Shown here in pieces: positions 8,244-61,310 of a DNA stretch of 64,000 bases. Source of the DNA: Candidatus Obscuribacteraceae bacterium (GTDB lineage Bacteria > Cyanobacteriota > Vampirovibrionia > Obscuribacterales > Obscuribacteraceae); assembly GCA_044229845.1 (NCBI GenBank), contig JBGASG010000007.1:221844-285843 (forward strand). Reading direction: 5' to 3'. Made by a program: the position numbers and the translations under genes. Position 1 is the stretch's first letter. Every line of letters starts with the position of its first letter. The notes beneath the pieces were generated by a model. It searched no databases, had not been told where the DNA came from, and worked only from the letters and a program-made list of their open reading frames with translations.

Positions 8244-8271
8244 AAATCTCAACCGATATCGGTTGGCGTTT
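8244..8271. repeat. intergenic palindromic repeat, copy 1 (core 8251-8264)
   Basis: aaatctc-AACCGATATCGGTT-ggcgttt, just upstream of mdh. Confidence 0.95.
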
Positions 8272-8533
8272 TTGGCGGCTGGCAAATTTCTCTGGGAGCG
8301 TCAATTTACCACGTGATACAGGGATATCCCAGCCATGAGTACAGATCCCGTTATTTTTGATTCTTTACGACTTTGGTTAAAACCGCCTGGCAGCCGGGCG
8401 GGAAATTTCAGTCCATGGCATTCTGTATTTCATGGGGCGCGAGTGGTGAAAACACTGCTGTAATCGCGCGAAATGGACTTTAGGATATAGAATACAAGTA
8501 GTTCTTTGCGGAGAACTCGGACAGGAGGAGTTA

Positions 8534-9232
8534 GTGAGGCTGCCAGTTCTGTTGGACCATACGAAACGGACATGGACTAGCGTGACCAGCGCATCCCTGC
8601 TGGTTCTTTCGCTTGCTTACCCGACCCTGACTCTGGCAGCAGATACAGCTGACCTAAAACCGCTGTCCCCTAAAGTGGACACCTCAACTCCTATCGATGC
8701 CCCGAAGAAGTTGCGCCCGCTCATGGGTTCTGTCCAGCATAGCGATAGAGTGCACTCAGGAACCACCGTCAACAAAGCCGCAAAGCTGAATGCCAACGCA
8801 TCGAGCACCCAGGCGAAGGCTGGACTGAAAAACCTGATGAACGCCCTCAAGGCGCGAACAGACGACAATACGCTGAAAGCGAAAGTCAAGGATGACCAGC
8901 TTAAAGCCCAGGCTCAATCGAGTTTCGGCATTATAGGCGTGAAATTCGTGCTCACCCTGGGGCACCCGCCTGTCATCAACCGAGTCTTTCCAGGTACGCC
9001 TGCCTGGGACAAAGGTCTTAAATTCGACGATCAGATAGTTGCGGTCGACGGCGTTCCAACGCTGGGGCTCACCAAAGACGAGGTTTATGACCTGATCATC
9101 GGCAGTCCCGGAACTCCGGTGGCACTTACCATCATGCGCAATGGCGACTTTATGCGTTGTACCTGTATGCGCATGGACATCAACGAAATTCGCGACCCTC
9201 TGGTTCGGCGCGACTACATGATGCACATGTAG
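8534..9232 (+). CDS. secreted PDZ-domain protein
   Basis: Signal peptide; FGIIGVKF...VFPGTPA..GLKFDDQIVAVDG PDZ motifs. Confidence 0.85.
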   Translation: MRLPVLLDHTKRTWTSVTSASLLVLSLAYPTLTLAADTADLKPLSPKVDTSTPIDAPKKLRPLMGSVQHSDRVHSGTTVNKAAKLNANASSTQAKAGLKNLMNALKARTDDNTLKAKVKDDQLKAQAQSSFGIIGVKFVLTLGHPPVINRVFPGTPAWDKGLKFDDQIVAVDGVPTLGLTKDEVYDLIIGSPGTPVALTIMRNGDFMRCTCMRMDINEIRDPLVRRDYMMHM

Positions 9233-9269
9233 GTTCAATTTTTCAGTGTTTTTGCATACCCGCTTCTGA

Positions 9270-9323
9270 AACTCAACCGATATCGGTTGAGTTCCGCGAT
9301 CTGAACCGATATCGGTTGGGGTT
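9270..9323. repeat. palindromic repeat pair, copies 2-3 (cores 9275-9288 and 9304-9317)
   Basis: 24-bp perfect palindrome aactcAACCGATATCGGTTgagtt, with a second core 29 bp downstream. Confidence 0.95.
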
Positions 9324-10264: not shown

Positions 10265-13050
10265 TTGAAAACGCTGTACTTGTATGTGCACACCCACTGG
10301 GACCGCGAGTGGTATCTACCATTCGAAGGGTTTCGAACCTCTCTGGTCGATGTCGCCAGGCGTATCGTCCGCGACCTGAAAATCGGGCAGCTGCCACATT
10401 TTTATTTCGATGGGCAGTCTGTAATTTTCGAGGATATCCTAGAAATCGCTCCTCAGTATGCGGAACAGTTTCGGCAGCTGATGAGCGAGGGAAGGCTGTC
10501 GGCCGGACCCTGGTATGTGCTTGCGGATCAGATGCTGGTGGGTGGAGAGAGTCTGGTGCGCAACCTGCACATCGGACTGAAGGAAACTTCCCGATACGGC
10601 ACGCCCAGCAAAATCGGCTACTGTCCGGATACGTTTGGTCATTCGCAGGATTTGCCGCGCATCCTGTCCGGGTTTGGCATCCTGTCGACCGTGATCTGGC
10701 GAGGTGTGCCCAGACTGGATTCGCCGGTATTTTGGTGGCAGAGCCCCGACGGCAGCCGCGTTCTCGCTTATCATTTGACCAACGGTTATTACCAGACTGG
10801 TTTTCACGAACTGGGCGGTGAACCGGGAGGCGCTGCGGTGGCAGCTGGGGCAGCAGCTAAGCGCGGTGCGTTGGAAGCAGCGAAAGACGGGTTGAAGAAA
10901 CTGACTAACGAACTGCGTTCGTGGGTGGAAGTCGGCGATGGAGACAATGGGCATATAAGTCCTTATTGCAGCCTTGTGGATGGCGCTCTGCATCCGGTCG
11001 GAGCCGATCACTGTGCGCCGCCGTTCAATTTCGCCAGTACTGTCGAGAAGATCAATCAAGCTCTGTCCGCCGACAAGGTGCCACTGAAGGCGGTATCATG
11101 TAGCTTGACCGAGTATTTGGAGCGCGTGCAGACCGCTCTGGAGAAACACAAAGTGCGGGTTGGACTTCTGGAGGGCGAGATGCGCGACAACAGCGCCGCC
11201 AAGCAGTATGCCCGCAGCTATTTATTGTACGGAGTGCTGAGCACGCGGCTTTATTTGAAGCGCGCAAATCGACTGGCGGAATACAAATTGAGTCGTCTCT
11301 GGGAACCACTGCTCTCTTCGCTGCACGTCCGGAAGAAGCTGGCGTATCCAGGTCAGGAGCTGCGTTTTGCCTGGAAGCTGCTGCTCAAAAATCATCCGCA
11401 CGACAGCATTTGTGGTTGCAGCGTCGACGCCGTTCACGATGAGATGATGGTGCGTTTCTCACGGCTGGATCAGCTACTGTCCGTGATTGAAAAGGCTGCC
11501 GAGAACGCCAGTGCAGGGAAGACTGAATCCAAAAGCCGGGTCAGCGGCTGCCTGTATCGGACCTGGTGCAACTGGAAGCGCGCGAGCCTTGCGATCAGCT
11601 CTTCGCCGGCTGGGGAGAAGTGCCGTATTACAAGCTGGTAGACGGCTGTCAGGGATGGGTGTGGGCTCAAGATGTTCCTGCTCACGGCAGTCGCAGTATT
11701 TCTTGGCCCGCTGAAAAGCCGGCTGCCGCACGGGCAGAAAAGAAACGGCATGCAGGCGCCGGGAACCCGGCACCGCCTGCTGTGCCCGTTTCGAAGGCGC
11801 ACGGTCGAGCCATGTCCAACGGACTCTTGCATCTTTCGGTCGAAGGGGACGGTACGCTAGTTGTCACCAGTACTTTACCGGGTCGCGCCGTCCACAGTTA
11901 TCGCCTGGCACACAAGCTGCGTGATACCGGCGACGGTGGCGACAGCTATAATTATGATCCGCTGCCGCGCGACAAGCCACTTTATGCTCGCTTTGAATCG
12001 GTGAATGTCAAACGGCGGGGTCCCCTGGTTTCTACACTGGAGATCACTTATTCGCTGGACATTCCAGAAGGGATTGTAGAGCCGGAGCGCCTGCAGTCGT
12101 CGTCGCATAAAGCGCCGGTCTCGAAGGCACCGTCGTTCAGGCGGTCGCGTACGCGCGTCAGCCACAAGATCACTACTGAGGTTTCGCTCTACCGCGGGCT
12201 GCCGATTGTTTTCTTCAACACCAGATGGAACAATCAAGCTCGAGACCACAGGCTGGAGGTGGTGTTCGATACAGGCAGCCCTGTGCATACCTCGCACTCG
12301 GAAAATCACTTCAGCCTGGTGAGGCGCTCGCATTTTGCGTCGCCTCGGGGCAAATCACCGCTAAGCGAACTGCCGGTTGCCGAGGCTACTGAAGCGGTTC
12401 CCGATCGTTTTCCGTGCCAGCGATTCTTCATCGCCAACGGGCAGCTATTCTTGAACAGTGGATTACCCGAATACGGAGTCGAACGCAGCACTGTCACCTA
12501 CACGGTATTGCGTGCCATGTCGTACCTGTCGCGTCCGCGACTGCGGACTCGCGGTGGTGGTGCTGGTCCAAGCTTGCCCGTCCCAGGCTCTAATTGTCTG
12601 GGCGAAAATTTGGTTTCCTACGGGTGGGCACCGCTATCGGTGCCGAAGCGAGCCGGTTCCAATGACTTACTCACAGACGAGCTGATTGTTGAGGCCTGCT
12701 CGCTTGCCGAACAATATGAAGGCTCCCTCTATCCATTGCTCGAGCGGGGTGATGCGGGAGAGCCCGATCGGCTCTACTTGTTGGATAATCCGGCGGTGCG
12801 CTGCGTCGCGCAGTTCGTGGAGGACGACGGGCGTACTCTAGTCTTGCGGTTGCTGAATGTTGCGCAGAGCAAACAGAAGGTGCGGATAAATCCGCGGTTT
12901 CGTTTTCAATCTGCGGCAGCTTGTTGGTTGAATCTGGAAGTTATCTCTCCGGTCGTTTTCAACAATGATCAGGCGGAACTGCATTTCGGAGCGAACGAAT
13001 TGAAGACTCTGCGCTTTGCGCTGAGCGAACCGGCGACTTGCGAAAACTAG
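10265..13050 (+). pseudogene. GH38 alpha-mannosidase family gene split into two frames (10265-11641 and 11566-13050)
   Basis: HTHWDREWY, GYCPDTFGHS and HPHDSICGCS in ORF1; GDGGDSYNY and NQARDHRL C-terminal domain in ORF2; frame change near 11527-11566. Confidence 0.75.
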
Positions 13051-14249: not shown

Positions 14250-14277
14250 AGATCTCAACCGATATCGGTTGAGATCT
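14250..14277. repeat. palindromic repeat, copy 4 (core 14257-14270)
   Basis: 28-bp perfect palindrome agatctcAACCGATATCGGTTgagatct. Confidence 0.95.
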
Positions 14278-19844: not shown

Positions 19845-19872
19845 AAATCTCAACCGATATCGGTTGGGTTTC
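19845..19872. repeat. palindromic repeat, copy 5 (core 19852-19865)
   Basis: aaatctc-AACCGATATCGGTT-gggtttc, 31 bp upstream of the lipA ATG. Confidence 0.95.
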
Positions 19873-19921: not shown

Positions 19922-21880
19922 CTAGCCGACGTGGATTTTCGGCCGGCGCTTGGGAACCGGCTCCGTAATTCGCAGCACCTCGCGGCAGACCGGCGCCGTT
20001 TCTCCCTCGCCCAGAAATATGAATTTAAAGATATAGGTGAGAGGGTTTCCTTCGGTCCAACCGAAGTAAGCGTGGGGAATCTTGCCGGTTTTATCGCGTA
20101 TGTGCAACAGGAGGGCGGCGATAGCGTTGGGAATGGCCGGGCTTGTGCAGCGCAGCACCTGGTAGCCGTCAACCTCTACTCCCTTGACGTGCAGCTCGTC
20201 CGAGAAATCGGAGGCATCGCTGAGATTTACTTCCAAAAAGATGAAATCACCTTCGGGGTGCTGAATACTGTGTACCTCACGCGATTCCGCTTCTTTGGTG
20301 CAGTAGTCGGTGCCGCCCGGGCGGTGTGACAGTATGCGGATTTCGCCTCTGGATGCCGCAGTAGCAATGAACTTCTCGGCGACGCTGTCCAATTTTATGT
20401 CGCTGACGCGCAATTCGAGGGATCTGATGGCGCGTGAAATGAGGGAAGTGACCAGAATTGCGCCAATGAAGAACGATGCGATGTGCAAGCCCTCCGGGCG
20501 TTCAATCATGTTGAGGATGGTGGTGTAGGTGAATACCAGCGTGATCACCAGGTAGGCGATGGTCATCAGAGACATTTTGCGCGCGGCGGAGATTGTCACC
20601 GCGACCGCAGCCGAGGTGATCAAGACCAGGACGCCGGTCGCGTAGGCTCCGGCCTGGGCATCCACATCAGCACGGAATATCAGCGTGACGACGAAGGAGA
20701 CCAGTGTGAAGAAGACCACCAGTGGACGCATGGCGCCAGCCCAGTCCGGTGCCATGCCGTACCGCGGCAGGTATCGAGGCACCAGATTGAGAAGCCCGGC
20801 CATGGCCGAGGCCCCGGCGAACCAGAGAATCAGAATTGAGCTGATATCGTAGGCGGTACCAAAGCCATGACCCAGATACTCGTGCGCCAGGTAGGCGAGC
20901 GCCCGTCCGTTAGCTTCGCCATTGTCAGCGAACTTGGCTGGCTCAATCAACAGGGTAGTTGTGATCGCGCTGCCGATCAGAAAGACGCTCATGAGCAGCG
21001 CGGCGGTAAATAATAGTTTGCGAGTGTTTCGAACGCGTCCGTCGGGCTGTTCGGGATCGTCATCGGGGCGACCCTTGACCAGCGGCATGACGGCGACTCC
21101 GGTCTCGAAACCGGACATGCCGAGGGCGAGCTTCGGGAAGAGAATGAGCGAGATGCCGGCCATTGTCCAGAAGCTCTTATACTGGTGCATCAGCCCTTGC
21201 TGCCAATTTTGAATGTGCTCCGGGTGCTCCAGGATGTCGTTGCCGGCGACACCAATGATGATACCGCTCATGGTCAGGTAGAGAATCACGAGCACGATCG
21301 AGACACCAATCGCTTCGCGGAAACCCAGCAGAAATATCGCTCCCAGCACGGAGAGCAGAAACAAGGTGATCCCCTCCCTGGACAATAACCAGGGCGGCAC
21401 CTGTTGAATGACGAGCGGGTTTTCGACGACGTGTGCGGTGGCATCGGCAGCCGAGAGTGTAATGGTGATAATGAAGTCTGTGGCTGCAAATCCCAGCAGA
21501 ATCAGAACAATTGTTTTGCCACGCCAGCCGGGGAAGAGGTTTTCCAGCATGGCAATCGAGCCCTGCCCGTGGGGACTTTCCTTCGCAACGCGCGAATAGA
21601 CAGGTAGCGCGCCGAACAAAGTCAAAAGCACGATCGTCAGGGTGGCGAACGGCGACAGCGCGCCAGCCGCTAAGAAGGCTATGCCGGGCTGGTAGCCGAG
21701 CGTCGAAAAATAATCGACGCCCGTGAGGCACATGACCTTCCACCACGCCGCCTGATGGAGCTTTGAATCGCGGGATTTTTGTTGCTGTTTGATGCCTTCA
21801 AAGAACCAGCGCCGAAATTTTGTCGACATCATGCGCGAGCGCTGCTCATTGTCCTGGGAAACCGTGGTAATCGATGACAT
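19922..21880 (-). CDS. APC-superfamily transporter, KimA/KUP-like putative K+/H+ symporter
   Basis: About 12 TM segments plus a cytoplasmic C-terminal domain; [26 protein letters not shown] and AYATGV motifs. Confidence 0.75.
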
Positions 21881-21926
21881 TTTAGTTGTAAGGTAGTTTT
21901 GATGCTCCGATCCTAGATTTGCGTGA

Positions 21927-22142
21927 CATAAAAACACCGCAAATATTTCCCGATTTGAGATCAAAAAAACGTAAAAATACCGAATCCGATCAGGATTTTT
22001 GCTTGATTCAGGCGACGAGATCTTCTGGAGCGTCGGCGGAAGGACGACTCAAAAGGCTCATTTGGTGCAGGTCACGCGGAACTCATTCAGCATCAACGCA
22101 ATTTTGATGCCGCCGGATGCGATTTTGACGCACTCTTAACGC
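21927..22142. promoter_or_regulatory. divergent promoter region with phased T-rich direct repeats (candidate KdpE boxes)
   Basis: Plus strand ttgatgc/cggatgc/ttgacgc/ttaacgc at 22104, 22114, 22125, 22136; minus strand TTTTTACG/TTTTTGAT/TATTTGCG/TTTTTATG within 21927-21977. Confidence 0.5.
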
Positions 22143-23189: not shown

Positions 23190-24293
23190 TCAGGTTTCTT
23201 CCCGAATCTCGGGTGGCACTGTATCTAGTGGCAGTGTGAAACAAATCTGAGCACCGCCGCCCGGGCGGTTTCCGGCAGTTATTGTTCCACCATGCGCTTT
23301 GACTATTCCGTGGCAGATTGCCAATCCCAGTCCAACGCCTGCCGAACTTTTGGCGGCGCTGCCTCGATAGAATTTCTCAAATACGTGATCGCTTTCTGCC
23401 GGGGAGAAGCCGGGGCCGGTGTCTAGAACGCAGACAGTAACTAAGCCCTTGGTAGTGTCACCGGCACCGCTGGTTGGAGTTGCTGATACCGAAACGGCAA
23501 TAGACGCGGTGGTTCCCGCGTATTTGATGGCGTTGTCCAGCAAGTTGGTCAGTACTTGTTCAATCAGAACCGCGTCCAGCGGCACGAGCAACAGTTCATC
23601 CGGCAATAGAACCTCAATCCGGGCGCCGGCTAATTTGGCTTCAACTCGTGCCAGGGCGGTGCCGATTACTTCTTCGATGGCCTGCCATTCCTTGTTGACC
23701 AGAATGTTGCCGGATTCAACGCGAGTCATTTCGAGCAAGTTTCCGACCAGGCGGTTCATTCGTTCTGATTCTTCATAAATGACCTCCAGCAGCTCATGTC
23801 GGGTTCCGGGATTGCTCTCGGCGGCTTCCTGCAAAAGACTGCTCGACGCACCGGTGATGGTGGCAAGCGGTGTGCGCAAATCATGAGAAACCGAACTCAG
23901 CAATGTGCTGCGCAACCGTTCCGTCTCCATCTGGCTGGAAGCTTGATCGGCTGCTTCCGCGTGTTCTCTGACTTGTGTGGTAAGCGTGCTTATCAACACC
24001 GCTACGGTCAACATCATGGCGAACGTCAGAAGATACTGAGTGTCGCTGACTGCAAAACTCAGGTACGGATGCACGCAGAAAAAATCGAAAGCTGCGACGC
24101 TCAGAAACGAAGCCAGTACCGAAGCGCCTCTCCCGAAACGAATGGCGACGATCACCACCCCTATCAGATAGACCATAATCAAATTAGCGGGTGACAGGTA
24201 TGGTTTGGCCACCTGCGCGGCGAGCGTAGCGGCTGCGGTGATCGCGGCACCGGCGAGGTATCCCAACAGAGTTGTGCGTTGCCGGTGAACCAT
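23190..24293 (-). CDS. short KdpD-like sensor histidine kinase (4-TM DUF4118, HisKA, HATPase only)
   Basis: AFDFFCVHPYLSFAVSDTQY, ERLRSTLLSSVSHDLRTPL, NLLDNAIKY, GVGLGLAIC; no N-terminal KdpD/Usp or GAF domain. Confidence 0.85.
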   Translation of the reverse strand: MVHRQRTTLLGYLAGAAITAAATLAAQVAKPYLSPANLIMVYLIGVVIVAIRFGRGASVLASFLSVAAFDFFCVHPYLSFAVSDTQYLLTFAMMLTVAVLISTLTTQVREHAEAADQASSQMETERLRSTLLSSVSHDLRTPLATITGASSSLLQEAAESNPGTRHELLEVIYEESERMNRLVGNLLEMTRVESGNILVNKEWQAIEEVIGTALARVEAKLAGARIEVLLPDELLLVPLDAVLIEQVLTNLLDNAIKYAGTTASIAVSVSATPTSGAGDTTKGLVTVCVLDTGPGFSPAESDHVFEKFYRGSAAKSSAGVGLGLAICHGIVKAHGGTITAGNRPGGGAQICFTLPLDTVPPEIREET

Positions 24294-24442
24294 AATCTCC
24301 AACTATACCGCAGGCGAGGGTCGCACCGGCACCGAAAGTGGTATCAAAACCGAATGTGCCTTGTAAAAAGCCGCATTATATTGCGATCAACGGCAAGTAG
24401 CTTGCGATAAAATTCCCGGAATCACCAGTCGAGGACGGTTTT

Positions 24443-25240
24443 ATGACCTTCGTGCGCCAGACGATAATTGCCGGTAATTGGAAGATGAACTTGAACCGTA
24501 GCGAGGCGAAGCAGCTGACCTCGGCAATTGCCGAAGGAGTCAAGAGTCAATCCGATCTACCCGCTATTGTCCTTTGCCCGCCGTTCACCAGTCTGGAAAC
24601 CGTCGGCGCCGCCATCGACCCCAAGACGATTGCTCTCGGTGCCCAAAACATGGACTATCGCGACTCAGGGGCGTTTACTGGAGAAGTCGCTCCTCCCATG
24701 TTGCTGGATTTGAATGTGAAATACGTCATCATTGGACATTCAGAAAGACGCCAACTTTTTGGAGAAACGAACCAAACTGTCAATCTAAAGCTGAAAGCCG
24801 CGCTCAGTCACAAACTTTTACCGATCGTCTGCGTGGGCGAAACTCTCGATGAACGGGAAAGCAACCTCACTGACTCGGTCGTCAGCCGCCAAGTAGTAGC
24901 TGCCTTGCAGGGGCTGACAGCTGCCGAGCTTAGTTCGCTGGTGATCGCCTACGAGCCAGTCTGGGCTATTGGCACCGGCAAGGTTTGCGAAGCCATGGAA
25001 GCTAATCGAGTCATCCGGACAATACGTCAGACTCTCGCTAACTCCACGTCTCAAGACCTGGCCAACCGGGTCCCGATCCTCTACGGCGGGAGCGTCAATT
25101 CCAAGAACGTTGACGAACAACTGATTCAAAGCGACATCGATGGTTCATTGGTCGGAGGCGCCAGCCTCAAAGCGGAAGACTTCCTCTCAATAATTGCCTC
25201 CGCGAAGAAATCACGCCTAAAAGTTGCGAATAAAGCCTAG
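24443..25240 (+). CDS. tpiA: triosephosphate isomerase
   Basis: AGNWKMN, GHSERR, AYEPVWAIGTG and YGGSV motifs. Confidence 0.97.
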   Translation: MTFVRQTIIAGNWKMNLNRSEAKQLTSAIAEGVKSQSDLPAIVLCPPFTSLETVGAAIDPKTIALGAQNMDYRDSGAFTGEVAPPMLLDLNVKYVIIGHSERRQLFGETNQTVNLKLKAALSHKLLPIVCVGETLDERESNLTDSVVSRQVVAALQGLTAAELSSLVIAYEPVWAIGTGKVCEAMEANRVIRTIRQTLANSTSQDLANRVPILYGGSVNSKNVDEQLIQSDIDGSLVGGASLKAEDFLSIIASAKKSRLKVANKA

Positions 25241-25256
25241 GTGCCGGCTGGACTCT

Positions 25257-25284
25257 AGATCTGAACCGATATCGGTTCGGGATT
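25257..25284. repeat. palindromic repeat, copy 6 (core 25264-25277)
   Basis: agatctg-AACCGATATCGGTT-cgggatt, downstream of tpiA. Confidence 0.95.
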
Positions 25285-25412
25285 GTTTTACGGGACCTTT
25301 GCAAGCGAAACTGTTATCCTTGAAAAAGCATGCACCGCGCAGGCGACCGCGGATTAACGTGGGGCGGCTGAGGGATGTCCCATCAGCTATAATGTCTCGC
25401 CTGAGATTACTC

Positions 25413-25504
<92 letters not shown>

Positions 25505-25521
25505 TTGTTTGAGCTCCGAAA

Positions 25522-26637: not shown

Positions 26638-27496
26638 GGCGCTGGTTGGCTTTGGGGTGGAACCGCCAGAAGCGCGTCGCGAAGCCGAGCTGATTGTCGA
26701 ACACATCACCGGGCTGACAATCGAAGGACAGATAAAAGTCGGTTCTGCCGCCACGCACCCAAGCTGGGAAGGTGCCCTGGAAGGAATTTTGGCGCGCCGC
26801 CAACGGCGCGAGCCGCTGCAGTACATCCTCGGTTACACCCTGTTTCGCGGCTTGAAATTCCAGTGCCACCAGGGCGTATTTATTCCGCGCAGCGACACGG
26901 AAACCGTGGTGGCGGTCGCTCTAGACCTGCTTGCTCTGGAGTCCAGCGCGCCGATCAAAGTGCTGGAAGTGGGTCCTGGAGCCGGCACCATTTGCATATC
27001 CCTGTTGCATGCGCTGCCAGATGTTTTGGTGACAGCCGTAGAGAAAAGCGCGGCGGCGATTTGTGCAACGCTTTCCAACGCTGGCGCGCAGGGTGACGCT
27101 ATCAGAGGTCGTTTGACCGTTATACAGCAAGACTGGCTTGACTTTGTCGCTAGTGCCACCGACCAGTTCCACCTGGTGGTGAGTAATCCGCCCTACATCC
27201 CGCTGTGTCAGCAACCGAAGTTGCAGCCGGAGGTAGGTCTTTGGGAGCCGCACGAGGCCTTATTCGGAGGGGGCGACGACGGCTTGCTTGTCTACCGTCA
27301 GCTGGCCCTTCGAGCTCCGAAGGTTCTCTTCCCGGGCGGATATCTGGTGGTAGAAGTTGGTGATGGGCAAGCGGAGAGTGTCGTGCATATCTTTGAGGCA
27401 TCCCACTGGCAGGCGGTGAACGCTCACTTGGATGTCCACGGATTGACGCGGGCGATAAGCGCTTGCGCCCCTAGACAGTCTGTCCAAGCGGGTTAG
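26600..27496 (+). CDS. prmC: release factor glutamine methyltransferase (HemK)
   Basis: [16 protein letters not shown] and VSNPPYIP motifs; follows prfA. Confidence 0.93.
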
Positions 27497-28447: not shown

Positions 28448-28471
28448 ATCTCAACCGATATCGGTTGAGAT
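28448..28471. repeat. palindromic repeat, copy 7 (core 28453-28466)
   Basis: 24-bp perfect palindrome running into a T7 tract, downstream of hslO. Confidence 0.95.
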
Positions 28472-32700: not shown

Positions 32701-33735
32701 ATGAACGAACTTCCATCCAGGCAATTGGACGACGACGCCAGCGCGAGCTTCATCGCAGAGTTCGACAGGCGCTTCCCCACTAACTTCCACTGCGTTATCG
32801 AACTGCGTCGCAGGGCTACAGGCGAGCAAGACCTTGTCTGCCAATGCGGAAGCGGCAACATCAAGATAAAGGATGATCGGAACGCGGAATGTCTTGAATG
32901 CGGGGAGCAATTCTGGTTGCTGGCGGATACCTTTTTTCATGGCATACGCAGACCTCGGGCTTATTTGCTGTTGATTGAAATGTTCGCAGAAGGTGTATTC
33001 ATCAATACGTCCCAGTTTCAGAAGGAGGCGCAGGTTGCATACTCGACAGCTCTGGGCATCTTCAAGAAGTTAACCATGGTTATCGCCGGCGGCATGAATG
33101 ACGGTGTTGAAGTTCCGTCGCACCTTTTTTCTCCGGGTTTCTGCAAGCGAAGCAAAGTCACACCTGCCGGAGAGCACCCTCGAAATGAAGAACGAGTTGC
33201 AGCTCCTCATCTAAATCCCAACCTGTCCATTCGGCAAGTAGACTCCTTGATACCAAATCCGGTGACCGATGAAAGCGCTTTGTCAGACGCGGACCTGGAA
33301 GTCCTCAATATGCTGACTGCGGACCCCATCCAATTTGATGCACTATTCGAGCGGACAGAAATGAGTGTGAGTACTCTGCTTTCTTCACTAACCGTCCTTG
33401 AGTTGTCTGGATTCGTCCTGCGTTTGAGTGCAGACAGATATGCATTGAGCCCGGAGGTTCGAACTAATCCAAATGATGATACCGTCGACTCCGACCGGCT
33501 CCCGGTGCGACAGGCGATTCTGGAAACAGTGGCCACGATTCTCAACTGGATAAAGAGTAGTTTCCACGGTATCAGTCGAAAATATCTTCAGAACTATCTT
33601 GCAGCGTATTGGTGTCTGAGAGACAGAGCGACCTGGAATCCGGGCGCGCTTGCTCGAGCATGTATCGATGCCGATGCCATAAGCGATCAGGTAATCCTTG
33701 CTTATGTCTCACCGCCCCTTGTCCGAATGATTTGA
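32701..33735 (+). CDS. IS1595-transposase-derived protein with an internal DprA-type winged-helix domain
   Basis: N-terminal EFDRRFPT..C, CQC..CLEC zinc ribbon, TFFHG and YSTA..IFKKL HTH; central winged helix; C-terminal FHGISRKYLQNYLAAY. Confidence 0.7.
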   Translation: MNELPSRQLDDDASASFIAEFDRRFPTNFHCVIELRRRATGEQDLVCQCGSGNIKIKDDRNAECLECGEQFWLLADTFFHGIRRPRAYLLLIEMFAEGVFINTSQFQKEAQVAYSTALGIFKKLTMVIAGGMNDGVEVPSHLFSPGFCKRSKVTPAGEHPRNEERVAAPHLNPNLSIRQVDSLIPNPVTDESALSDADLEVLNMLTADPIQFDALFERTEMSVSTLLSSLTVLELSGFVLRLSADRYALSPEVRTNPNDDTVDSDRLPVRQAILETVATILNWIKSSFHGISRKYLQNYLAAYWCLRDRATWNPGALARACIDADAISDQVILAYVSPPLVRMI

Positions 33736-34520: not shown

Positions 34521-34548
34521 AAAGCTCAACCGATATCGGTTTAGATTT
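34521..34548. repeat. palindromic repeat, copy 9 (core 34528-34541)
   Basis: aaagctc-AACCGATATCGGTT-tagattt. Confidence 0.95.
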
Positions 34549-39927: not shown

Positions 39928-39990
39928 AATCCCAACCGATATCGGTTGGGATTTCAGCATTGCAACCTCAACCGATATCGGTTCACGTTT
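39928..39990. repeat. palindromic repeat pair, copies 10-11 (cores 39934-39947 and 39970-39983)
   Basis: 26-bp perfect palindrome aatcccAACCGATATCGGTTgggatt, with a second core 36 bp downstream. Confidence 0.95.
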
Positions 39991-43879: not shown

Positions 43880-43904
43880 TCGCGAAAGGTTAGTCTCCAC
43901 AAAG

Positions 43905-44942: not shown

Positions 44943-44953
44943 TCTACTCAATT

Positions 44954-45012
44954 AAATCTGAACCGATATCGGTTCAGTTTTCAGATCTCAACCGATATCG
45001 GTTCAGATCTGA
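44954..45012. repeat. palindromic repeat pair, copies 12-13 (cores 44961-44974 and 44990-45003)
   Basis: aaatctg-core-cagttt followed by tcagatctc-core-cagatctga; 29-bp spacing. Confidence 0.95.
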
Positions 45013-45133
45013 CAGGGGGGAGGTAAACGCTGCAAATTGTGTCAGCACTGGCGCAGGACAGGCTTTTGAGTCCCGCTGATGATATCCTTTTGCAGGCGCG
45101 AGCCAGGGCGGTATTCAAGATGAGGCGTCAGTA

Positions 45134-45466
45134 ATGATCAGGCTGCACAAGCCGGTAAAGCTCATGGAATGGGGTACGGGAACGAACACCACCAACCAGG
45201 TCTGGAGCGAATCGGGTAAGGGGCGAATTGTTAGGAACACCGTCGTCAATGGTCTCACTCGCCTCGATATTGAGATTGAGGGACAGTTCGAGAAGAAAAA
45301 TGCTCGCGACACCTCGATCAAACTGGCTCAGGAAAGCGAAGGCATGGCGGCGCAATCGAAGTTCTGGGGCGAAGTGGCCATGGGCGACCTGAGCGCTGTC
45401 GAAAGCGAAGGTGGCAAAACCGTAGTCACCATCGCTATCGCTGCCGCAACCAAAATCTCGAGATAA
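45134..45466 (+). CDS. hypothetical protein
   Basis: 110-aa ORF with a GAGG RBS, convergent with the next gene. Confidence 0.55.
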   Translation: MIRLHKPVKLMEWGTGTNTTNQVWSESGKGRIVRNTVVNGLTRLDIEIEGQFEKKNARDTSIKLAQESEGMAAQSKFWGEVAMGDLSAVESEGGKTVVTIAIAAATKISR

Positions 45467-45467
45467 A

Positions 45468-48074
45468 TTAGAGTCTGCGGATGGTGCCGGCGCTGCCGTC
45501 CACCTCGACCATGGTGCCGTCTTCCCATAAAGACGTGGCGTCTGGAATGCCTGAAACACAGGGCAGCCCGTACTCGCGTGCCACCAGAGCCCCGTGCTGA
45601 AGCATGCCGCCGATTTCCAATATCACTGCGGCGCAATTGACGAAAAGTGGTGTCCAGCCGGGATCAGTTGCTCGAGCGACGAGTACGTCTCCCCGTTCAA
45701 GCGGCTTTTCATCTGCCGAGTGTAATACTTTGATAGGTCCGCGCGCTACGCCTGGAGAAATTGCGGTGCCAGCCACTTCTCCTTCGCCGACTGGACGCGG
45801 TGGCGGACGGAGGATTTTTCCTCGCGAATCAATGAGTGTCGGTAGCGACGGCACACGCGACAGCTTGTCGAGAAACTCTCGATTTTTGCGGCATTGAACC
45901 CGCAGGTCGATTTTGCGGTCGCGCAGCGCGACCATAAATTCATCCAGCGTTAAATCAAAGATCTGGTCGACTAGATCCAGTCGACCTGAGTCCACAAGCG
46001 CTTCCCCGGCGGACAACAGACGCTGGCGAATCAGATCGAGCATGAAGATCAAATAGAACTTCGGGGTCTCACGGTACCCGGCCAGCTCAACCACCACTTT
46101 GTACAGGTGCTGGAAATTCCGAAGATCGCCGAATCTACGCGCGTCCCGCAATTGCATGCTGACGGATTCGTAGACGGCTTGGCGCTCACGGCAGGCTGTT
46201 TCGAAACGAACTTTGGGATTGTCCTGAGCGGATGTTGATCGCCGCAGCGCCACCAGTTGTTCAACCAGTAACCGCGGATTGTCTCGATAGCGAGGCGAAG
46301 CAATGTCCAGTTCACCGGCACCGCGATGTCCGTAACGGGTGATGAAATTGTGCCAGGCGCGTTCTAAATCGGCGGGCAGACCTCCCTGGTGCAGCTTGCT
46401 CGTGAATGTTTCGACATTCATAACCGCCGGCATCGAGAGCGAAACATCATACAGAGCCAGACCCATTTCGGTGGTCACATTGTGGGGCATCCCCTGCTCT
46501 AATTTGCGCAGATCGCTCTCGGCAACGGCGGTTTTGCCGGCGATCTGTTTCATGCGCGCCACCGCCGCGCGCGAGGCACCGACGGTTGGCATCAGCTCGT
46601 CGCTGACGGTGCGCAAGACCAGGTCCATGAGTTTGCCGACGAAAATACGCATGGGCAGATTTTGCGCGCTCAAAACCCGCGCATTTGCTTCCAGCTGCTG
46701 GAGTTTTTGCTGCGCGCGCTTGTGAGCTGTCTGGGGAGCCAGGTTGACACGCGCCAGCTTCGGAAACGAAGCCAGCAAGTTGCGCAAAATAAATACGAGG
46801 GCTATCGGCAAGCCCGGTTTCTTGTAAAAGTTCTCGTCGAGCCCGGCAATTACAGACGCTGCCAGCGGATCCATGTTGACCAGCAGTTCGCTCAGGCGCC
46901 GGGCGCCAAGTATGCCGATCACCACCGACAAATTTACATAAAGGCGTCCGCCGCATGCGAAGGCCATACTTTTCTGGGGTTGGCCGGTGAGTGCGGTACC
47001 GACCCGTTTGCCGGCTGATTTGAGCGCTGTCTCAAGCACGCTGGTGCCCATCACGGAGAGCGGTTTGAACAACGCCTGCACGCTGATGGTGGCATCTAAG
47101 TAAAGCAGGCGTCGCGCGCCCGGCGGTGTCACCATCGCCGGCAGCAGCGGCACGTAAGTGGTAATCGGTCGGGCTTGCAAAAGGTAGAGCTGTCCGCCTG
47201 CAAATGCCCATTCAATATCGATCGGCTGCTTGTAAAAAGTCTCGACTTGCGTGATTAGATTGGTCAGGCTGCGCAGCAGCCGATCCGAGAGAGTGAGCTG
47301 GTTGTGCCGGTCATCGACGCGTTCGACAGTCGATCCTTCCGGCAAGAGCCAGATCGATGTTTCCTTCTTGCCGAGGCGGCGTTCCAGCACTTTCTTCGAA
47401 ACTTTATTGACGATGAAAGTGTCGGCGGTCACCGTACCTGATACCACCGTTTCGCCCAGTCCCCAGTTGGAGTTGAAGACGGCTTCGTCAAAGTCATTGC
47501 TGAGAGGATTGAGCGAAAATCCGACACCCGAAACATCGCTGGCTATCTGTTTCTGCACCACCACGGCTATTTTCGGATCGGTGACTGAGAAACCGGCCTG
47601 CCGCTTGTAGATGACGATGCGCACATCCAGGCAAGAGGCAAACGTCTGATGGATGGCTTCCTCCAGGCGATCGCGGTTGACACCGAGTATGGTTTCATAA
47701 CCGCCGGCAAAAGAAGATCCTTCCAGATCCTCCTCGGGCGATGAAGAACGCACCGCCCATAGTGCTGCCGCCGGTTCGGCGGCGGTTAGTTTCGCCAGGC
47801 AGGCTCTCTGTTCGCTGGTGAATTCCAGCCCGTGGGAGAAGTTTTTCAGTTCGGCACAAGCCGGTGCCGGGTCGGTATCGAGTGTGGCAAGAAACCGCTG
47901 CCAGCTGGGAGACGCCGTGATCCGCTCGATCCAGGGGCGGAAAAAGGCCAGCGGTAAAACATATCCCGGCGGTACCGGCAAACCGGCCGCGCTGGTCTTA
48001 ATAAGTGACCAGCCTTTGCCGCCGACTTCACTTATTGGAGCATCTGCAGTTCCGGGAAAGCGATAGACGTCCAA
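45468..48074 (-). CDS. PEP-utilising/PPDK-N ATP-grasp enzyme with rifampin phosphotransferase-like architecture
   Basis: VGGKG, AVRSS...ED, SFAG, DIEWA, LLQARPIT; C-terminal phospho-His domain TDPGWTPLF...GGMLQHGALVAREYGLP. Confidence 0.85.
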   Translation of the reverse strand: MDVYRFPGTADAPISEVGGKGWSLIKTSAAGLPVPPGYVLPLAFFRPWIERITASPSWQRFLATLDTDPAPACAELKNFSHGLEFTSEQRACLAKLTAAEPAAALWAVRSSSPEEDLEGSSFAGGYETILGVNRDRLEEAIHQTFASCLDVRIVIYKRQAGFSVTDPKIAVVVQKQIASDVSGVGFSLNPLSNDFDEAVFNSNWGLGETVVSGTVTADTFIVNKVSKKVLERRLGKKETSIWLLPEGSTVERVDDRHNQLTLSDRLLRSLTNLITQVETFYKQPIDIEWAFAGGQLYLLQARPITTYVPLLPAMVTPPGARRLLYLDATISVQALFKPLSVMGTSVLETALKSAGKRVGTALTGQPQKSMAFACGGRLYVNLSVVIGILGARRLSELLVNMDPLAASVIAGLDENFYKKPGLPIALVFILRNLLASFPKLARVNLAPQTAHKRAQQKLQQLEANARVLSAQNLPMRIFVGKLMDLVLRTVSDELMPTVGASRAAVARMKQIAGKTAVAESDLRKLEQGMPHNVTTEMGLALYDVSLSMPAVMNVETFTSKLHQGGLPADLERAWHNFITRYGHRGAGELDIASPRYRDNPRLLVEQLVALRRSTSAQDNPKVRFETACRERQAVYESVSMQLRDARRFGDLRNFQHLYKVVVELAGYRETPKFYLIFMLDLIRQRLLSAGEALVDSGRLDLVDQIFDLTLDEFMVALRDRKIDLRVQCRKNREFLDKLSRVPSLPTLIDSRGKILRPPPRPVGEGEVAGTAISPGVARGPIKVLHSADEKPLERGDVLVARATDPGWTPLFVNCAAVILEIGGMLQHGALVAREYGLPCVSGIPDATSLWEDGTMVEVDGSAGTIRRL

Positions 48075-53760: not shown

Positions 53761-53761
53761 T

Positions 53762-59137: not shown

Positions 59138-59144
59138 TACTTCG

Positions 59145-61037
59145 TTACTTCGATGCTGTTTCCTTGGGCGCTGCGGGCGCCTTATCAAGGTCGATGCCTT
59201 TGTTCATTTCCTTCTCGGCTTCCTTGGGATCGCCCAGTTGCTTCAGTACATCGGCCAGCTTGCGGTGCAAAATAGACAAGTTGGGAGCGATGTTGAGTGC
59301 GTCACGCAGTTCTTCTGCTGCTTTGACGAAGTTTCCTTCTTTTGAAAACTGTTCAGCCTTCTGCATATTAGGCTGCACTCTCAAAAGACTCACCTGGCGC
59401 AGAGCAGACTCTGCCTCGGGTTCGTTGAACGATGCCGCCATGCGGAAGTCGCCGGCTGCCTCGGCTAGCTCGCCTTTCTTCTGGTGAACGCTGCCGCGCA
59501 AGGCGTAGGCATGCCCATCGGCTGGGTCTTTGTCTAGCACTTCGTTCAGCAACTGCAGGGCGCCATCCATGTCGCCGCCGGACATGGCTTTTTCCATAGC
59601 CGCGTAGTTTTTGGCCGGTTTGCGAGGCGGCGGTGGTGCCGCTGCCACCGCTGGTGGTGCACTGGAGCCGGTGCTGCCTCCGCTGCCGCCGGTCGGTGTT
59701 GAAGTGCCGCCGCTGCCGCTGTTGCCGGTATTGTCCGGGATGTCCCCGGCTTCGTTGGCAGCTCCCAGTCGGCCGAAGGCGATTTTCAAATCCGGATCAA
59801 TATAAGGATTGATTTCTTTGGCCTTGCGGTAGCAATTCATCGCCTCATCGTTGTTGGCTTGATGTTCCTGCAGTCGCCCGAGGATGTACCACCAGCGGGC
59901 ATTCTCAGGGTCTTGATCGAGAAACTTCTTGACCTTGCCGATGCTTTCCTGCACGAGCGCAGGCGACGCCATCGCCGAGCGGGCCACGCGCTGGTGCAAT
60001 GCAATTCGGGCGGGCGCCAACGCGGTGTTGCGTGGGTCGAGCTTGTAGCACTGCTCGTAGGCAATCTTGGCGTGCTCGAAATCATCGAGCAAAACATAAG
60101 CGCCACCCAGCATCAGATAATTATCGAAAGACGGTTTGATAGCCACCGCTTCCCTGGCTACTTCCACAAAGCTGCGCTTGGCGTCGGCGTTGGCATCGTT
60201 GATTGTCACAGCTCGCCTGTATTCGGTGCCCGCGTTCATCAAGCGCCGCATGCCGATCGAGCCTTTGCCCATCTTTTTAGCGACAAAGGCGAACTCTTTG
60301 AGAATGTCGCCGAGACGCATATGACACTCAGCCAGTTCGATTTTGTCTTTGGGCTCCCAGTTTTTGGAAACAGCTATTTTCAGTTCGGCGAAACCGTCGA
60401 CGGTCTTGTTGGCTTTCATCAAGGCTTTGCCGAGTTTGGCATGGGTGGGTCCGTCGTCTGAGATCTTGACGCATCGTCGATACTCAACAATGGCAGTTTC
60501 GTAGTCGCCGGAAATTTCTGCATCTTCGGCGATGCGCACACGCACAGCCATGCTGTAGGGGTCTTTTTTGCCGCGCCTCAGGCATTCGTCGAGGTGGTCC
60601 TCGGCGGGGTTGTTGCCCGGATCGACATAAAGCGCACCGCGATACTGTTTCATCGCGTTATAAAGGTCGCCTTTATTCATCAGCATGTCGCCGTAACGAA
60701 GCTGAGCTGCAGACAAGTTGGTGCGGAAGGTTTTATTGTTAGGGTCGCCCATGAGCGCGGCTTCGTGCTCGCGGATTGCATCGGGCCAGAGACCCTTGCT
60801 GCCCAGTTCGACGCCGCGGTTGTTGTGCTCGAGCGGCGTGCGTGGATCCGGTGTGCTGAGGAAAACGCCACCACCGCCTCCTCCACCACCGCCCCCACCG
60901 CCGGAACGTCGCTTGGGAGCGGCATCGGCGCTGTTGGAGAGCACGGATAGAGCAAGAAGAGCGAGGAGCGAACTAGTAAAAATGGCTTTCATGGTGGTCG
61001 ACTCAATTGCGCGCTGTGGCTGACGAGAACTCGTCAT
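59145..61037 (-). CDS. secreted TPR protein with poly-Gly and Ser/Pro linkers
   Basis: Signal peptide, a poly-Gly tract, and EHNNRGVELG plus further TPR units. Confidence 0.8.
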   Translation of the reverse strand: MTSSRQPQRAIESTTMKAIFTSSLLALLALSVLSNSADAAPKRRSGGGGGGGGGGGGVFLSTPDPRTPLEHNNRGVELGSKGLWPDAIREHEAALMGDPNNKTFRTNLSAAQLRYGDMLMNKGDLYNAMKQYRGALYVDPGNNPAEDHLDECLRRGKKDPYSMAVRVRIAEDAEISGDYETAIVEYRRCVKISDDGPTHAKLGKALMKANKTVDGFAELKIAVSKNWEPKDKIELAECHMRLGDILKEFAFVAKKMGKGSIGMRRLMNAGTEYRRAVTINDANADAKRSFVEVAREAVAIKPSFDNYLMLGGAYVLLDDFEHAKIAYEQCYKLDPRNTALAPARIALHQRVARSAMASPALVQESIGKVKKFLDQDPENARWWYILGRLQEHQANNDEAMNCYRKAKEINPYIDPDLKIAFGRLGAANEAGDIPDNTGNSGSGGTSTPTGGSGGSTGSSAPPAVAAAPPPPRKPAKNYAAMEKAMSGGDMDGALQLLNEVLDKDPADGHAYALRGSVHQKKGELAEAAGDFRMAASFNEPEAESALRQVSLLRVQPNMQKAEQFSKEGNFVKAAEELRDALNIAPNLSILHRKLADVLKQLGDPKEAEKEMNKGIDLDKAPAAPKETASK

Positions 61038-61253
61038 ACAGTCATTGTTATCACGAATTGCCCGCAGCGTAGAGCGGTGGACTCTGCGCTGTGCCCGATT
61101 TCGGACAACATCACAGACTTTGTTCCACGTCTGACGGTAATCCTTGACTATAAATATGTTGTTTTTTCGCGGAAATGAAACCGGCTTTTTACCAGTGTTT
61201 CGCTAAACCCCGATTAGCACCGCCAACTGCTCAGTTTTCGCAGCGCCACATCC

Positions 61254-61310
61254 AAAACCCGAACCGATATCGGTTGGGGTTTGATCTGAACCGATATCGG
61301 TTCGGGTTTT
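61254..61310. repeat. palindromic repeat pair, copies 14-15 (cores 61262-61275 and 61289-61302)
   Basis: aaaacccg-core-ggggtttgatctg-core-cgggtttt; the outer arms make the whole pair one larger inverted repeat; 27-bp spacing. Confidence 0.95.

What the first reader, a model, noticed from the sequence alone, without database searches (positions are those of the whole stretch)
8244..61310. Dispersed intergenic family of perfect palindromes, AACCGATATCGGTT (15 copies, 11 loci)
Seen: an identical loop-less 14-bp palindrome with cores at 8251, 9275, 9304, 14257, 19852, 25264, 28453, 32614, 34528, 39934, 39970, 44961, 44990, 61262 and 61289. All lie outside the genes I could call, although the window is densely coding. 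Chance expectation for a given 14-mer in 64 kb is about 2e-4 under uniform composition. The arms follow roughly A(A/G)A(T/C)C(T/C)(C/G). In several copies they co-vary to keep symmetry (ctc/gag, ctg/cag, ccc/ggg), giving perfect palindromes of 24-38 bp. Known: REP elements are dispersed intergenic palindromes, and cyanobacterial HIP1 is GCGATCGC and occurs inside genes. This motif matches neither HIP1 nor the GTAG/CGTC-tetranucleotide REP pattern as I know them. Inference: a lineage-specific REP-like selfish repeat or a genome-wide binding site for a dimeric protein. At this density it would reach hundreds to over a thousand copies per genome.
Basis: partly seen in the sequence, partly recalled or inferred. 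Interest (0 to 1): 0.88.

Follow-up and report, generated by a model that had tools for sequence, protein, structure and literature searches.

The report
Palindromes paired with their own genes
The 14-base palindrome is real but local: it is one of several variant palindrome families in a non-photosynthetic relative of cyanobacteria, each clustered within roughly 100-250 kb around its own copy of an uncharacterised zinc-ribbon/winged-helix gene that likely binds it and is predicted to spread or maintain it, much as REP repeats depend on their RAYT gene but with an unrelated protein.

Summary
In detail: 15 exact copies at the stated places, none with 1-2 mismatches, none expected by chance. The extrapolation does not. 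The 5.16-Mb genome has only 26 exact copies, 20 of them in the last 108 kb of this contig. The motif is one member of a family AA-NN-GATATC-NN-TT whose inner letters differ by chromosomal region (CC, GC, GT, TT).

The window holds the key. The 38-bp palindrome at 32602-32639 sits upstream of a 344-aa gene (32701-33735) with a zinc ribbon, a helix-turn-helix-like part, a winged helix and a sub-threshold tail like an IS1595 transposase. The genome has five diverged paralogues, one per region. Four carry their region's variant palindrome upstream; the fifth carries mixed ones. In a relative's complete chromosome, three of three intact paralogues lie inside clusters of their own variant; two of these clusters were predicted before the search.

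Cores are conserved where arms and flanks diverge. Where one species lost the gene, the nearby palindromes are decayed or missing. No Y1 (RAYT) transposase goes with them.

I read this as a REP-RAYT-like partnership with a new, lineage-specific protein family. Binding and copying are inferred. The scan has noted other GATATC repeats in other phyla, but not this family.

The parts
8250..8265 (.). Palindrome copy (core 8251-8264, perfect 16 bp), between divergent malate dehydrogenase (-) and PDZ protein (+) genes
9270..9317 (.). Doublet: copy 9275 (perfect 24 bp) and copy 9304 (14 bp), 29 nt apart, 42 nt after the stop of the PDZ gene
14250..14277 (.). Palindrome copy (core 14257-14270, perfect 28 bp) between two + strand genes
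19851..19866 (.). Palindrome copy (core 19852-19865), 56 nt after the stop of the - strand gene 19922-21964
25263..25278 (.). Palindrome copy (core 25264-25277) between the triosephosphate isomerase stop (25240) and tRNA-Ser (25413-25502)
28448..28471 (.). Palindrome copy (core 28453-28466, perfect 24 bp), 31 nt after the Hsp33 stop, beside the separate terminator-like hairpin of the L28 gene
32602..32639 (.). Gene-proximal 'master' palindrome, perfect 38 bp (core 32614-32627). Its centre is 80 nt upstream of the ATG of the cognate gene.
32701..33735 (+). Cognate gene (P0001, 344 aa from ATG; the ORF is open from TTG at 32647). Parts: zinc ribbon, HTH-like part, DprA-type winged helix, IS1595-like C-terminal tail. 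I first mislabelled it DprA.
34528..34541 (.). Palindrome copy (14 bp) between divergent genes of unknown function
39928..39983 (.). Doublet: copy 39934 (perfect 26 bp) and copy 39970, 36 nt apart, between the aminotransferase stop and tRNA-Val (40044-40116)
44958..45003 (.). Doublet: copy 44961 (perfect 20 bp) and copy 44990, 29 nt apart, between convergent genes
61262..61303 (.). Doublet: copies 61262 and 61289, 27 nt apart. The sister species G001 has a single perfect 30-bp palindrome here.

Best explanation
The 15 copies are the local population of one palindrome family clustered around a gene in the window (32701-33735) whose product, a zinc-ribbon/helix-turn-helix/winged-helix protein possibly derived from an IS1595-type transposase, likely binds the 14-bp core as a dimer and is predicted to copy or keep the core plus about 7-bp arms in nearby DNA, acting mostly near its own gene.

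Shown:
- There is one diverged paralogue per palindrome variant.
- A long, often perfect palindrome with the cognate core lies about 80-160 nt upstream of most family genes.
- Dispersed copies lie within about -164 to +81 kb of the gene.
- Proteins and cores diverged together.
- Cores are conserved while arms and flanks drift.
- The palindromes are decayed or missing where one species lacks the gene.

Inferred:
- DNA binding and dimer formation.
- Autoregulation through the upstream palindrome.
- The copying step. I favour local copy-in or short-patch conversion into similar pre-existing sequence, followed by symmetrisation of the arms by hairpin template switching.
- Any benefit to the host.
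For: (1) Pairing in the window's genome. tblastn finds five paralogues (27-33% identity) on C6, C3, C18, C10 and C8. Four carry AACC.., AAGC.., AAGT.. and AATT..-type palindromes just upstream. The C8 copy carries mixed ones. Of 144 half-sites on the four contigs, 125 match the variant beside that contig's gene. Shuffled labels gave a mean of 45 and a maximum of 66, reaching 125 in 0 of 10000.

(2) Generality. In 31 of 38 gene copies from at least 20 genomes, a palindrome of this type lies upstream, mostly centred 76-160 nt before the ATG. It is perfect up to 64 bp, with arms unique to each gene.

(3) Prediction test on the complete 5.04-Mb chromosome G076. Twelve ATCCGTTAACGGAT-type copies lie only at 3.424-3.664 Mb around their gene at 3.558 Mb. 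Six (A/T)TCCGATATCGGAT copies lie only at 4.392-4.636 Mb around their gene at 4.416 Mb. The control gave 1 and 0. Fourteen of 37 AACC copies lie in 72 kb around the gene at 2.379 Mb.

(4) Co-divergence. In the protein tree the GC and GT paralogues are sisters (98/96), then C8 (98/97), then TT (89/94). The three G076 paralogues form one clade (96/97). Core labels need 12 changes against a shuffled mean of 19.8, as low in 0 of 200.

(5) Constraint. Between G000 and G001 the core shows 0 of 266 differences, against 243 of 3852 (6.3%) in arms and flanks. G076 and G054 are about 75% identical overall, yet the cores show 2 of 168 differences. This includes two copies that lie in frame inside ORFs.

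(6) Dependence. G016 lacks the gene at that locus; 1104 bp are replaced by 321 unrelated bp. Of six neighbouring elements it keeps none exact, while G068 and G054 keep 6 of 6. All 51 genomes with AACCGATATCGGTT have a strong family match. The 15 genomes with only weak matches have none.

(7) Protein. A DprA-type winged helix is present in all five paralogues. Four cysteines are invariant. The model has pLDDT 77. Its residues 188-261 match winged-helix DNA binders at Z about 8.
Against:
- The transposase link is sub-threshold: PF12762 positions 119-146 only, E 0.07 and 0.006, and PF12760 does not hit. The model is mostly helical without an RNase-H-like sheet. So there is no evident catalytic centre for copying.
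- No new insertion separates G000 from G001 apart from one 27-bp doublet. No indel at the palindromes appears in four DNA runs. Mobility is therefore not observed directly.
- Two copies lie in frame in genes, at the same length as the copy-free relative. That fits substitution or conversion, or selection, better than insertion.
- In G076, 23 of 37 AACC copies lie outside the main cluster, some more than 1 Mb from any full-length gene.
- G013 has nine paralogues with long palindromes but only 11 AACC copies, so spread is not obligatory.
- Related genomes are not independent samples.
Confidence: 0.6

Rival explanations
1. The palindromes are ordinary binding sites of a family of local DNA-binding proteins (transcription factors or nucleoid organisers). 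They evolved in place by point mutation and selection. They cluster near the gene because a scarce protein finds nearby sites first. Nothing is copied.
For: - Cores are under strong constraint at each site.
- Two sites lie in frame inside genes, at the same length as in a relative that lacks them.
- The protein looks like a DNA binder without a catalytic fold.
- The palindrome upstream of each gene fits an autoregulatory operator.
Against: - Copies share about 7 nt of arms beyond the core, and the arms differ between families and genera. That points to descent from one another.
- Tandem doublets and arrays with 27-39-nt periods are common.
- Neighbouring genes share no functional theme.
- Sites show no preference for the promoter side. 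Tandem gaps have a mean relative position of 0.49, and gap types match the background.
- Copy number ranges from 0 to 96 within single genera.
Confidence: 0.22
2. They are intrinsic, often bidirectional, transcription terminators or mRNA-stabilising hairpins whose shared sequence is incidental.
For: - All 15 copies fold into hairpins with a 4-nt loop, with RNA energies of -7.9 to -23.9 kcal/mol for 42 nt.
- Many have A-runs to the left and T-runs to the right.
- Eight of 11 window loci lie 18-56 nt after a stop codon.
Against: - Genome-wide, the split of loci among tandem, divergent and convergent gaps (35/20/7) matches the background by length. Position within tandem gaps is uniform: 28 of 53 lie on the stop side.
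- Three of 11 window loci lie between divergent genes.
- Only 1 of 6 copies in 24000-43999 was flagged terminator-like.
- A terminator role explains neither the exact 14-mer kept across 24 of 37 genera nor the cognate genes.
Confidence: 0.06
3. They are classical REP/REPIN elements mobilised by a RAYT (Y1/HUH transposase).
For: They are short extragenic palindromes in many copies. G000 has PF01797 genes.
Against: - PF01797 was found in 11 of 41 family genomes. It was not found in G004, G006, G007, G014 or G016, which hold 18-69 AACC copies.
- The three full copies in G000 score identically, like an insertion sequence.
- The elements carry no GTAG or CGTC tag.
Confidence: 0.02
4. They are DNA-uptake signals with 'dialects', and the regional variants mark DNA imported from relatives.
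For: Exact motif conservation across genera and variant 'dialects'. This resemblance to Neisseria DUS dialects is recalled, not tested.
Against: - Density is far too low and local: 26 copies in 5.16 Mb.
- Each variant is centred on its own paralogous gene. Import does not explain that.
Confidence: 0.03

Closest known systems
REP/REPIN elements with their RAYT (TnpA-REP) gene. I read passages of PMC5581495 and PMC3733652 and saw the abstracts of PMC8266576 and PMC8049555.
   Same: - Short extragenic palindromes in tens of copies.
- Each family is tied to a cognate gene that is flanked by its own repeat.
- Paralogues within a genome are diverged rather than duplicated.
- Repeats and gene are inherited vertically and persist.
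- Repeats are absent or decayed where the gene is missing.
   Different: - The protein is unrelated to Y1/HUH transposases.
- The palindromes are loop-less and perfect, without a GTAG or CGTC tag.
- The cognate palindrome lies on one side only, upstream of the gene.
- Copies stay within about 100-250 kb of the gene. The REP survey states that most REP families are spread through the genome.
- Several orthogonal pairs coexist on one chromosome.
IS1595-family transposases and their MITEs
   Same: - An N-terminal zinc ribbon followed by a helical DNA-binding part.
- A C-terminal motif that weakly matches the end of PF12762.
- Language-model neighbours include IS1595 clusters at 0.77-0.83, which are leads only.
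- A palindrome can be read as two abutted inverted ends. This is my inference.
   Different: - No match reaches the Pfam cut-offs.
- The region where the DDE core would lie holds a linker and a winged helix.
- No terminal repeats flank the gene, and no target duplication was seen.
HIP1 and other highly iterated palindromes of cyanobacteria
   Same: A short palindrome in the cyanobacterial phylum. The GC variant reads like HIP1 with AT added at its centre (my observation).
   Different: HIP1 is genome-wide and frequent inside genes. This family is intergenic (about 108 of 110 copies), regional and tied to a gene.
Replicon-specific ParB-parS centromeres, for example the four replicons of Burkholderia cenocepacia (recalled, not checked)
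   Same: Palindromic sites whose inner letters set specificity for paralogous binding proteins encoded nearby. Sites cluster near the gene.
   Different: - There is no ParB domain.
- Several systems sit on one chromosome.
- Clusters are not tied to the origin. In G076, dnaA is at 2.83 Mb and the clusters at 2.34-2.41, 3.42-3.66 and 4.39-4.64 Mb.
- Copy number varies from 0 to 96 among close relatives.

Membership tests
REP/REPIN-RAYT system | Short repetitive extragenic palindromes in many copies | tested here: met
   The genome has 122 family hits against a control of 1. About 108 of 110 copies are intergenic.
REP/REPIN-RAYT system | Cognate Y1/HUH transposase (PF01797) gene flanked by the repeats | tested here: not met
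   PF01797 was found in 11 of 41 genomes. It was not found in five genomes rich in the palindrome. The gene beside the palindromes has no Y1 domain.
REP/REPIN-RAYT system | GTAG or CGTC tetranucleotide at one end (the two REP super-families of PMC3733652) | tested here: not met
   The unit reads AAATCT(C/G)-AACCGATATCGGTT-(G/C)AGATTT. The paper's text has no GATATC.
IS1595-family transposase | Zn_ribbon_IS1595 (PF12760) and DDE_Tnp_IS1595 (PF12762) above the curated cut-offs | tested here: not met
   PF12762 matches positions 119-146 of 153 only, at 13.5-17.1 bits against a cut-off of 27. PF12760 does not hit the paralogues.
IS1595-family transposase | RNase-H-like DDE catalytic fold | tested here: inconclusive
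   The model is mostly helical, with only short strands. Fold searches matched only residues 188-261, so other parts are barely tested.
MITE | Terminal inverted repeats plus target-site duplication; filled and empty sites | tested here: inconclusive
   The whole element is one inverted repeat. No clean filled/empty pair was found. G016 shows decay or a shorter spacer, not a precise empty site.
Intrinsic terminator | GC-rich hairpin followed by a T-run just after a stop codon | tested here: inconclusive
   Hairpins form. But 1 of 6 copies was flagged, and genome-wide there is no bias towards stops.
DprA (DNA processing protein A) | DprA Rossmann-like domain together with the C-terminal winged helix | tested here: not met
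   Only PF17782 (DprA_WH) matches in all five paralogues, at E up to 1.
HIP1-type highly iterated palindrome | Genome-wide over-representation, including coding DNA | tested here: not met
   There are 26 exact copies, 20 of them in 108 kb. The 1.07-Mb contig C1 has none.

The most novel reading that the evidence does not exclude
This is a second, independent kind of repeat-plus-keeper partnership in bacteria. A lineage-specific protein family built from transposase DNA-binding parts but without a DDE core writes and maintains its own perfect palindromes. It does so only in the neighbourhood of its gene. After gene duplication, protein and palindrome change specificity together. One chromosome therefore carries several orthogonal protein-palindrome pairs, each marking its own 100-250-kb territory.
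Probability: 0.4. Interest if true: 0.88.

Novelty: new variant of a known kind. Interest (0 to 1): 0.8.

Why it matters
[quoted passage not shown] A second pairing with an unrelated protein would suggest that this arrangement can evolve more than once.

It also offers something REP-RAYT does not. Several diverged protein-site pairs sit in one genome, and both partners can be read from sequence: CC, GC, GT and TT variants, and GATATC versus GTTAAC centres. That is a natural data set for how DNA-recognition specificity changes after gene duplication.

The tight clustering of copies around each gene makes cis-limited action of a DNA-binding or DNA-copying protein directly testable.

For annotation, it gives a role to a family of at least 257 clusters of 'hypothetical proteins' (representatives at 50% identity, E up to 1e-30). 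It also explains a conspicuous intergenic repeat of Obscuribacterales genomes.

Tried and rejected
- RAYT link: PF01797 profile across 41 genomes, rejected.
- Conserved site behind recG: none of 28 other genera has a GATATC-family palindrome beside recG.
- Origin or terminus marker: there is no GC-skew switch in the element-rich regions of G000. In G076 the clusters are not at the dnaA/skew origin or at the skew terminus. dnaA was not found in G000, which is 88% complete.
- Orthologous domain: the AACC cluster of G006 is syntenic to element-free parts of G000. The g16 cluster is syntenic to the element-free stretch C6:68-107 kb.
- Rfam: only tRNAs in the window.
- RNA evidence: metatranscriptome contigs (not raw reads) gave sparse cover. 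Single contigs stop at 28445 and 39913 just before palindromes, each in one study only, so this counts for nothing. There is no usable cover of the gene 32701-33735.
- Population polymorphism: no indel at the seven copies in 28001-48000 in four DNA runs.
- Sequence search of solved structures: only weak winged-helix and zinc-ribbon matches.
- Foldseek against PDB: nothing at E up to 0.001.
- Complex prediction (homodimer): not available, so nothing was folded.
- Literature: the string search for CGATATCG gave only primers and oligonucleotides. 'Small dispersed repeats' with cyanobacteria gave nothing relevant. Obscuribacter/Melainabacteria with repeat terms gave no paper on repeats. IS1595/domesticated/palindromic and domesticated transposase/REPIN/DDE gave no non-RAYT keeper.
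- Earlier notes of this scan: no look-alike by sequence. Word hits were other GATATC repeats in other phyla.
- Not used: the metagenome-contig scan, and bioRxiv supplements, which are closed.
Full report
**Observation**

The 14-mer AACCGATATCGGTT occurs 15 times in the window at exactly the listed starts. None was found in 100 shuffles, and no extra copy appears at up to two mismatches. The perfect palindromes extend to 14-38 bp. The window is the last 64 kb of contig C6 of a 5.16-Mb, 22-contig assembly.

Its genes are ordinary core genes: recA, a peptide release factor, tpiA, mdh, recG, hsp33, lnt and a PEP-utilising enzyme. It also holds four tRNAs. The closest named RecA record is a Candidatus Melainabacteria MAG at 76%. 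Homologues of the key protein are named Candidatus Obscuribacterales or Melainabacteria. Runs that hold the stretch are sludge, bioreactor and wastewater metagenomes.

Contigs of four DNA runs from four studies cover the palindromes without indels. Contigs break only inside the 38-bp palindrome and inside one doublet.

**The motif is local and is one of several variants**

The genome has 26 exact copies: 20 on C6 between 178 and 286 kb, 3 on C7, and one each on C3, C11 and C17. The looser pattern AANNGATATCNNTT has 122 hits against a control of 1.

The hits sort by region. AACC..GGTT is on C6 and C7. AAGC..GCTT is on C3. AAGT..ACTT is on C18 and, mixed with GC, on C8. AATT..AATT is on C10 and at the ends of C15, C16 and C19. 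The 1.07-Mb contig C1 has none. Hybrids of two half-sites occur.

By crude gene calls, 88 of 110 copies are intergenic, against 14% of random positions. The other 22 lie in short ORFs created by the repeats or in the first 13-23 codons of over-extended ORFs, with one or two exceptions.

Loci fall in tandem, divergent and convergent gaps (35/20/7) as the background does. Their position within tandem gaps is uniform. A terminator role therefore cannot explain them, although all copies can fold into hairpins.

**Relatives**

The exact 14-mer is present in 51 of 81 genomes of the same taxonomic family and in 24 of 37 genera. Counts range from 0 to 96, even within one genus, with controls near zero. 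Other families of the class are at background.

The sister species G001 (93-99.8% identical here) has all 20 C6 copies at orthologous places. The window doublet 61262/61289 is a single perfect 30-bp palindrome there.

Clusters in other genera are just as local but not orthologous:
- G006 has 17 of 20 copies in 187 kb, syntenic to element-free parts of G000.
- G076 has 14 of 37 copies in 72 kb, syntenic to element-free C6:68-107 kb.
- None of 28 other genera has an element beside recG.
- The clusters are not tied to GC-skew switches or dnaA.

**Constraint**

Between G000 and G001 the core shows 0 differences in 266 positions. Arms and flanks show 243 in 3852 (6.3%). At that rate, zero in 266 has a probability of about 3e-8.

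The GC/GT families are looser. Of 30 comparable pairs, 20 are identical, 8 carry 9 substitutions (none in the central GATATC), one has an indel and one is unalignable. Of the 50 G001 copies I queried, 15 had no hit and 5 were only partly aligned.

G076 and G054 are about 75% identical across the cluster. Yet 10 AACC copies and two hybrids are shared, with 2 differences in 168 core positions.

**The gene**

The 38-bp palindrome at 32602-32639 lies just upstream of an ORF (TTG 32647, ATG 32701, stop 33735). I had first labelled it DprA because of a DprA-type winged helix. It also gave a weak IS1595-transposase match and two full-length hits inside the G006 cluster.

tblastn finds five paralogues in G000 (27-33% identity), one in each variant region. 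Each has a palindrome upstream:

| Contig | Upstream palindrome |
|---|---|
| C6 | AACC type, 38 bp perfect |
| C3 | AAGC type, plus three degenerate copies |
| C18 | AAGT type |
| C10 | AATT type, 48 bp perfect |
| C8 | Two mixed copies |

Of 144 half-sites on C6, C3, C18 and C10, 125 match the variant next to that contig's gene. No shuffle out of 10000 reached this. Copies lie -164 to +81 kb from the gene, with a median distance of 20-35 kb.

G001 has the same five genes at matching places. Its C8-type copy carries three in-frame stops. That region has the most mixed palindromes.

**Generality and a prediction**

Across the family's genomes the gene is multi-copy and diverged. In 31 of 38 copies examined, the best palindrome upstream is of this type, mostly centred 76-160 nt before the ATG. 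The exceptions include loci with too little upstream DNA or a misplaced start.

Cores include AACCGATATCGGTT, ATCCGATATCGGAT, AACCGTTAACGGTT and TTCCGAATTCGGAA. The gene-proximal palindromes are perfect up to 64 bp, with arms unique to each gene. G013 has nine paralogues, eight of them with perfect palindromes of 38-64 bp.

From the cores upstream of G076's other two intact paralogues, I predicted clusters of their own variants. The search gave 18 hits (control 1 and 0). Twelve GTTAAC-type copies lie at 3.424-3.664 Mb around the gene at 3.558 Mb. Six lie at 4.392-4.636 Mb around the gene at 4.416 Mb. There are none elsewhere in 5.04 Mb.

The protein tree groups G000's GC and GT paralogues (98/96), then C8 (98/97), then TT (89/94). 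It puts G076's three paralogues in one clade (96/97). Core labels need 12 changes against 19.8 when shuffled, as low in 0 of 200. Kin share labels, so this shows clustering, not independent events. Six of the 38 copies were left out for lack of a core label.

**Dependence**

In genus g16, G076, G068 and G054 keep the gene and all six neighbouring elements tested. G016 has 321 unrelated bp in place of the 1104-bp gene. It keeps a remnant of the master with a disrupted centre, and none of the six elements is exact:
- one has a single substitution;
- one is a half element;
- one is the master remnant;
- one is missing, with a shorter spacer;
- two positions inside ORFs carry a non-palindromic sequence of the same length.

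The last two show that copies can sit in frame in genes. They also show that gain or loss there went by substitution or conversion, not by insertion.

All 51 genomes with the AACC motif have a strong family match (best E 5e-30 or lower). The 15 genomes with only weak matches (E 1e-16 to 1e-22, probably DprA's own winged helix) have no copy. A further 15 have the protein but not this core.

The family was not found at E up to 1e-25 in 200 genomes of 34 other families of the phylum.

**The protein**

All five paralogues carry PF17782. The alignment shows four invariant cysteines, a TAGTFF..IR motif, a conserved KRSRETPAR stretch, a variable acidic linker, the winged helix and a C-terminal GISRKYLQNYL motif. 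That last motif matches only the end of PF12762, below the cut-off. No true IS1595 transposase was found in G000.

The family is large and unnamed: 759 representatives at E up to 0.001 and 257 at E up to 1e-30.

The AlphaFold model (pLDDT 77, pTM 0.65) is mostly helical, with zinc-ribbon strands and a winged helix. Foldseek found nothing at E up to 0.001. VIA-align matched only residues 188-261, to IclR, ArsR and MarR regulators, RPA32C and DprA, at Z about 8. So DNA binding is likely. A catalytic centre is not evident, and the transposase ancestry is a lead only.

**Reading**

The logic is that of REP-RAYT: a repeat family tied to a cognate, diverged, vertically inherited gene flanked by its repeat. 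The protein is unrelated, and the copies stay local.

I infer that the protein binds the core as a dimer and regulates itself through the upstream palindrome. I also infer that it promotes local copying or short-patch conversion. The perfect, gene-specific arms are best explained by hairpin template switching (quasipalindrome correction, recalled from the E. coli literature). This tends to make palindromes perfect and to lengthen them.

The main rival is in-place evolution of selected binding sites.

I found no description of this family in the searches listed under Tried and rejected.

Noticed in passing
G000 genome-wide, e.g. C6:13382 and C6:17615 (outside the window): A second palindrome family, CACC-N6-GGTG, has 44 perfect copies. 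CACCATATATGGTG occurs 12 times. The copies are dispersed over many contigs rather than clustered; possibly an operator of a global regulator.
   Followed up: partly
G000 C3:37.6 kb, C3:227.0 kb, C8:278.4 kb, C18:22.2 kb: TTTACCCGGGTAAA-type palindromes occur in pairs a few tens of bases apart (about 5-50 nt in the loci shown), in the same long intergenic regions as the GATATC arrays. They look like paired operator sites.
   Followed up: no
G000 C8:163-182 kb: GGTCAGCGCTGACC occurs seven times at 3-4 kb spacing, probably inside a repetitive large gene or gene array.
   Followed up: no
window 38737: The assembly lacks about 54 nt that four DNA runs, one RNA contig and G001 all carry. The class-III aminotransferase ORF (38669-39718) matches Pfam only from model position 116. 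The gene is probably broken by an assembly error or a real deletion.
   Followed up: partly
window 40044-40123: G001 carries about 10 kb of extra DNA next to tRNA-Val, as expected of an island integrated at a tRNA gene.
   Followed up: no
window 10265-13050: A GH38 alpha-mannosidase is split over two overlapping ORFs (10265-11641 and 11566-13050). This may be a frameshift or a sequencing error.
   Followed up: no
G000 C8:30541-30906, C14:111727-112092, C14:172466-172831: Three equally scoring IS200/IS605-type Y1 transposase genes, unrelated to the palindromes.
   Followed up: partly
G000 C3:141754-141923, C3:226771-226940, C3:248766-248837, C18:22.3-22.5 kb: The palindromes also form tandem arrays of 3-6 units with periods of 39, 34 and 29 nt.
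   Followed up: partly
G076 C1:2604377, 2847639, 2839842, 2903146, 3030513: Short ORFs (130-169 aa) match only the N-terminal zinc-ribbon/helical part (profile positions 26-141) of the family. Two of them score identically.
   Followed up: no
window 1000-4011: A HerA-like helicase gene (1000-2679, -) and a bifunctional-nuclease-domain gene (3484-4011, +) lie at the start of the window, with tRNA-Leu between them.
   Followed up: no
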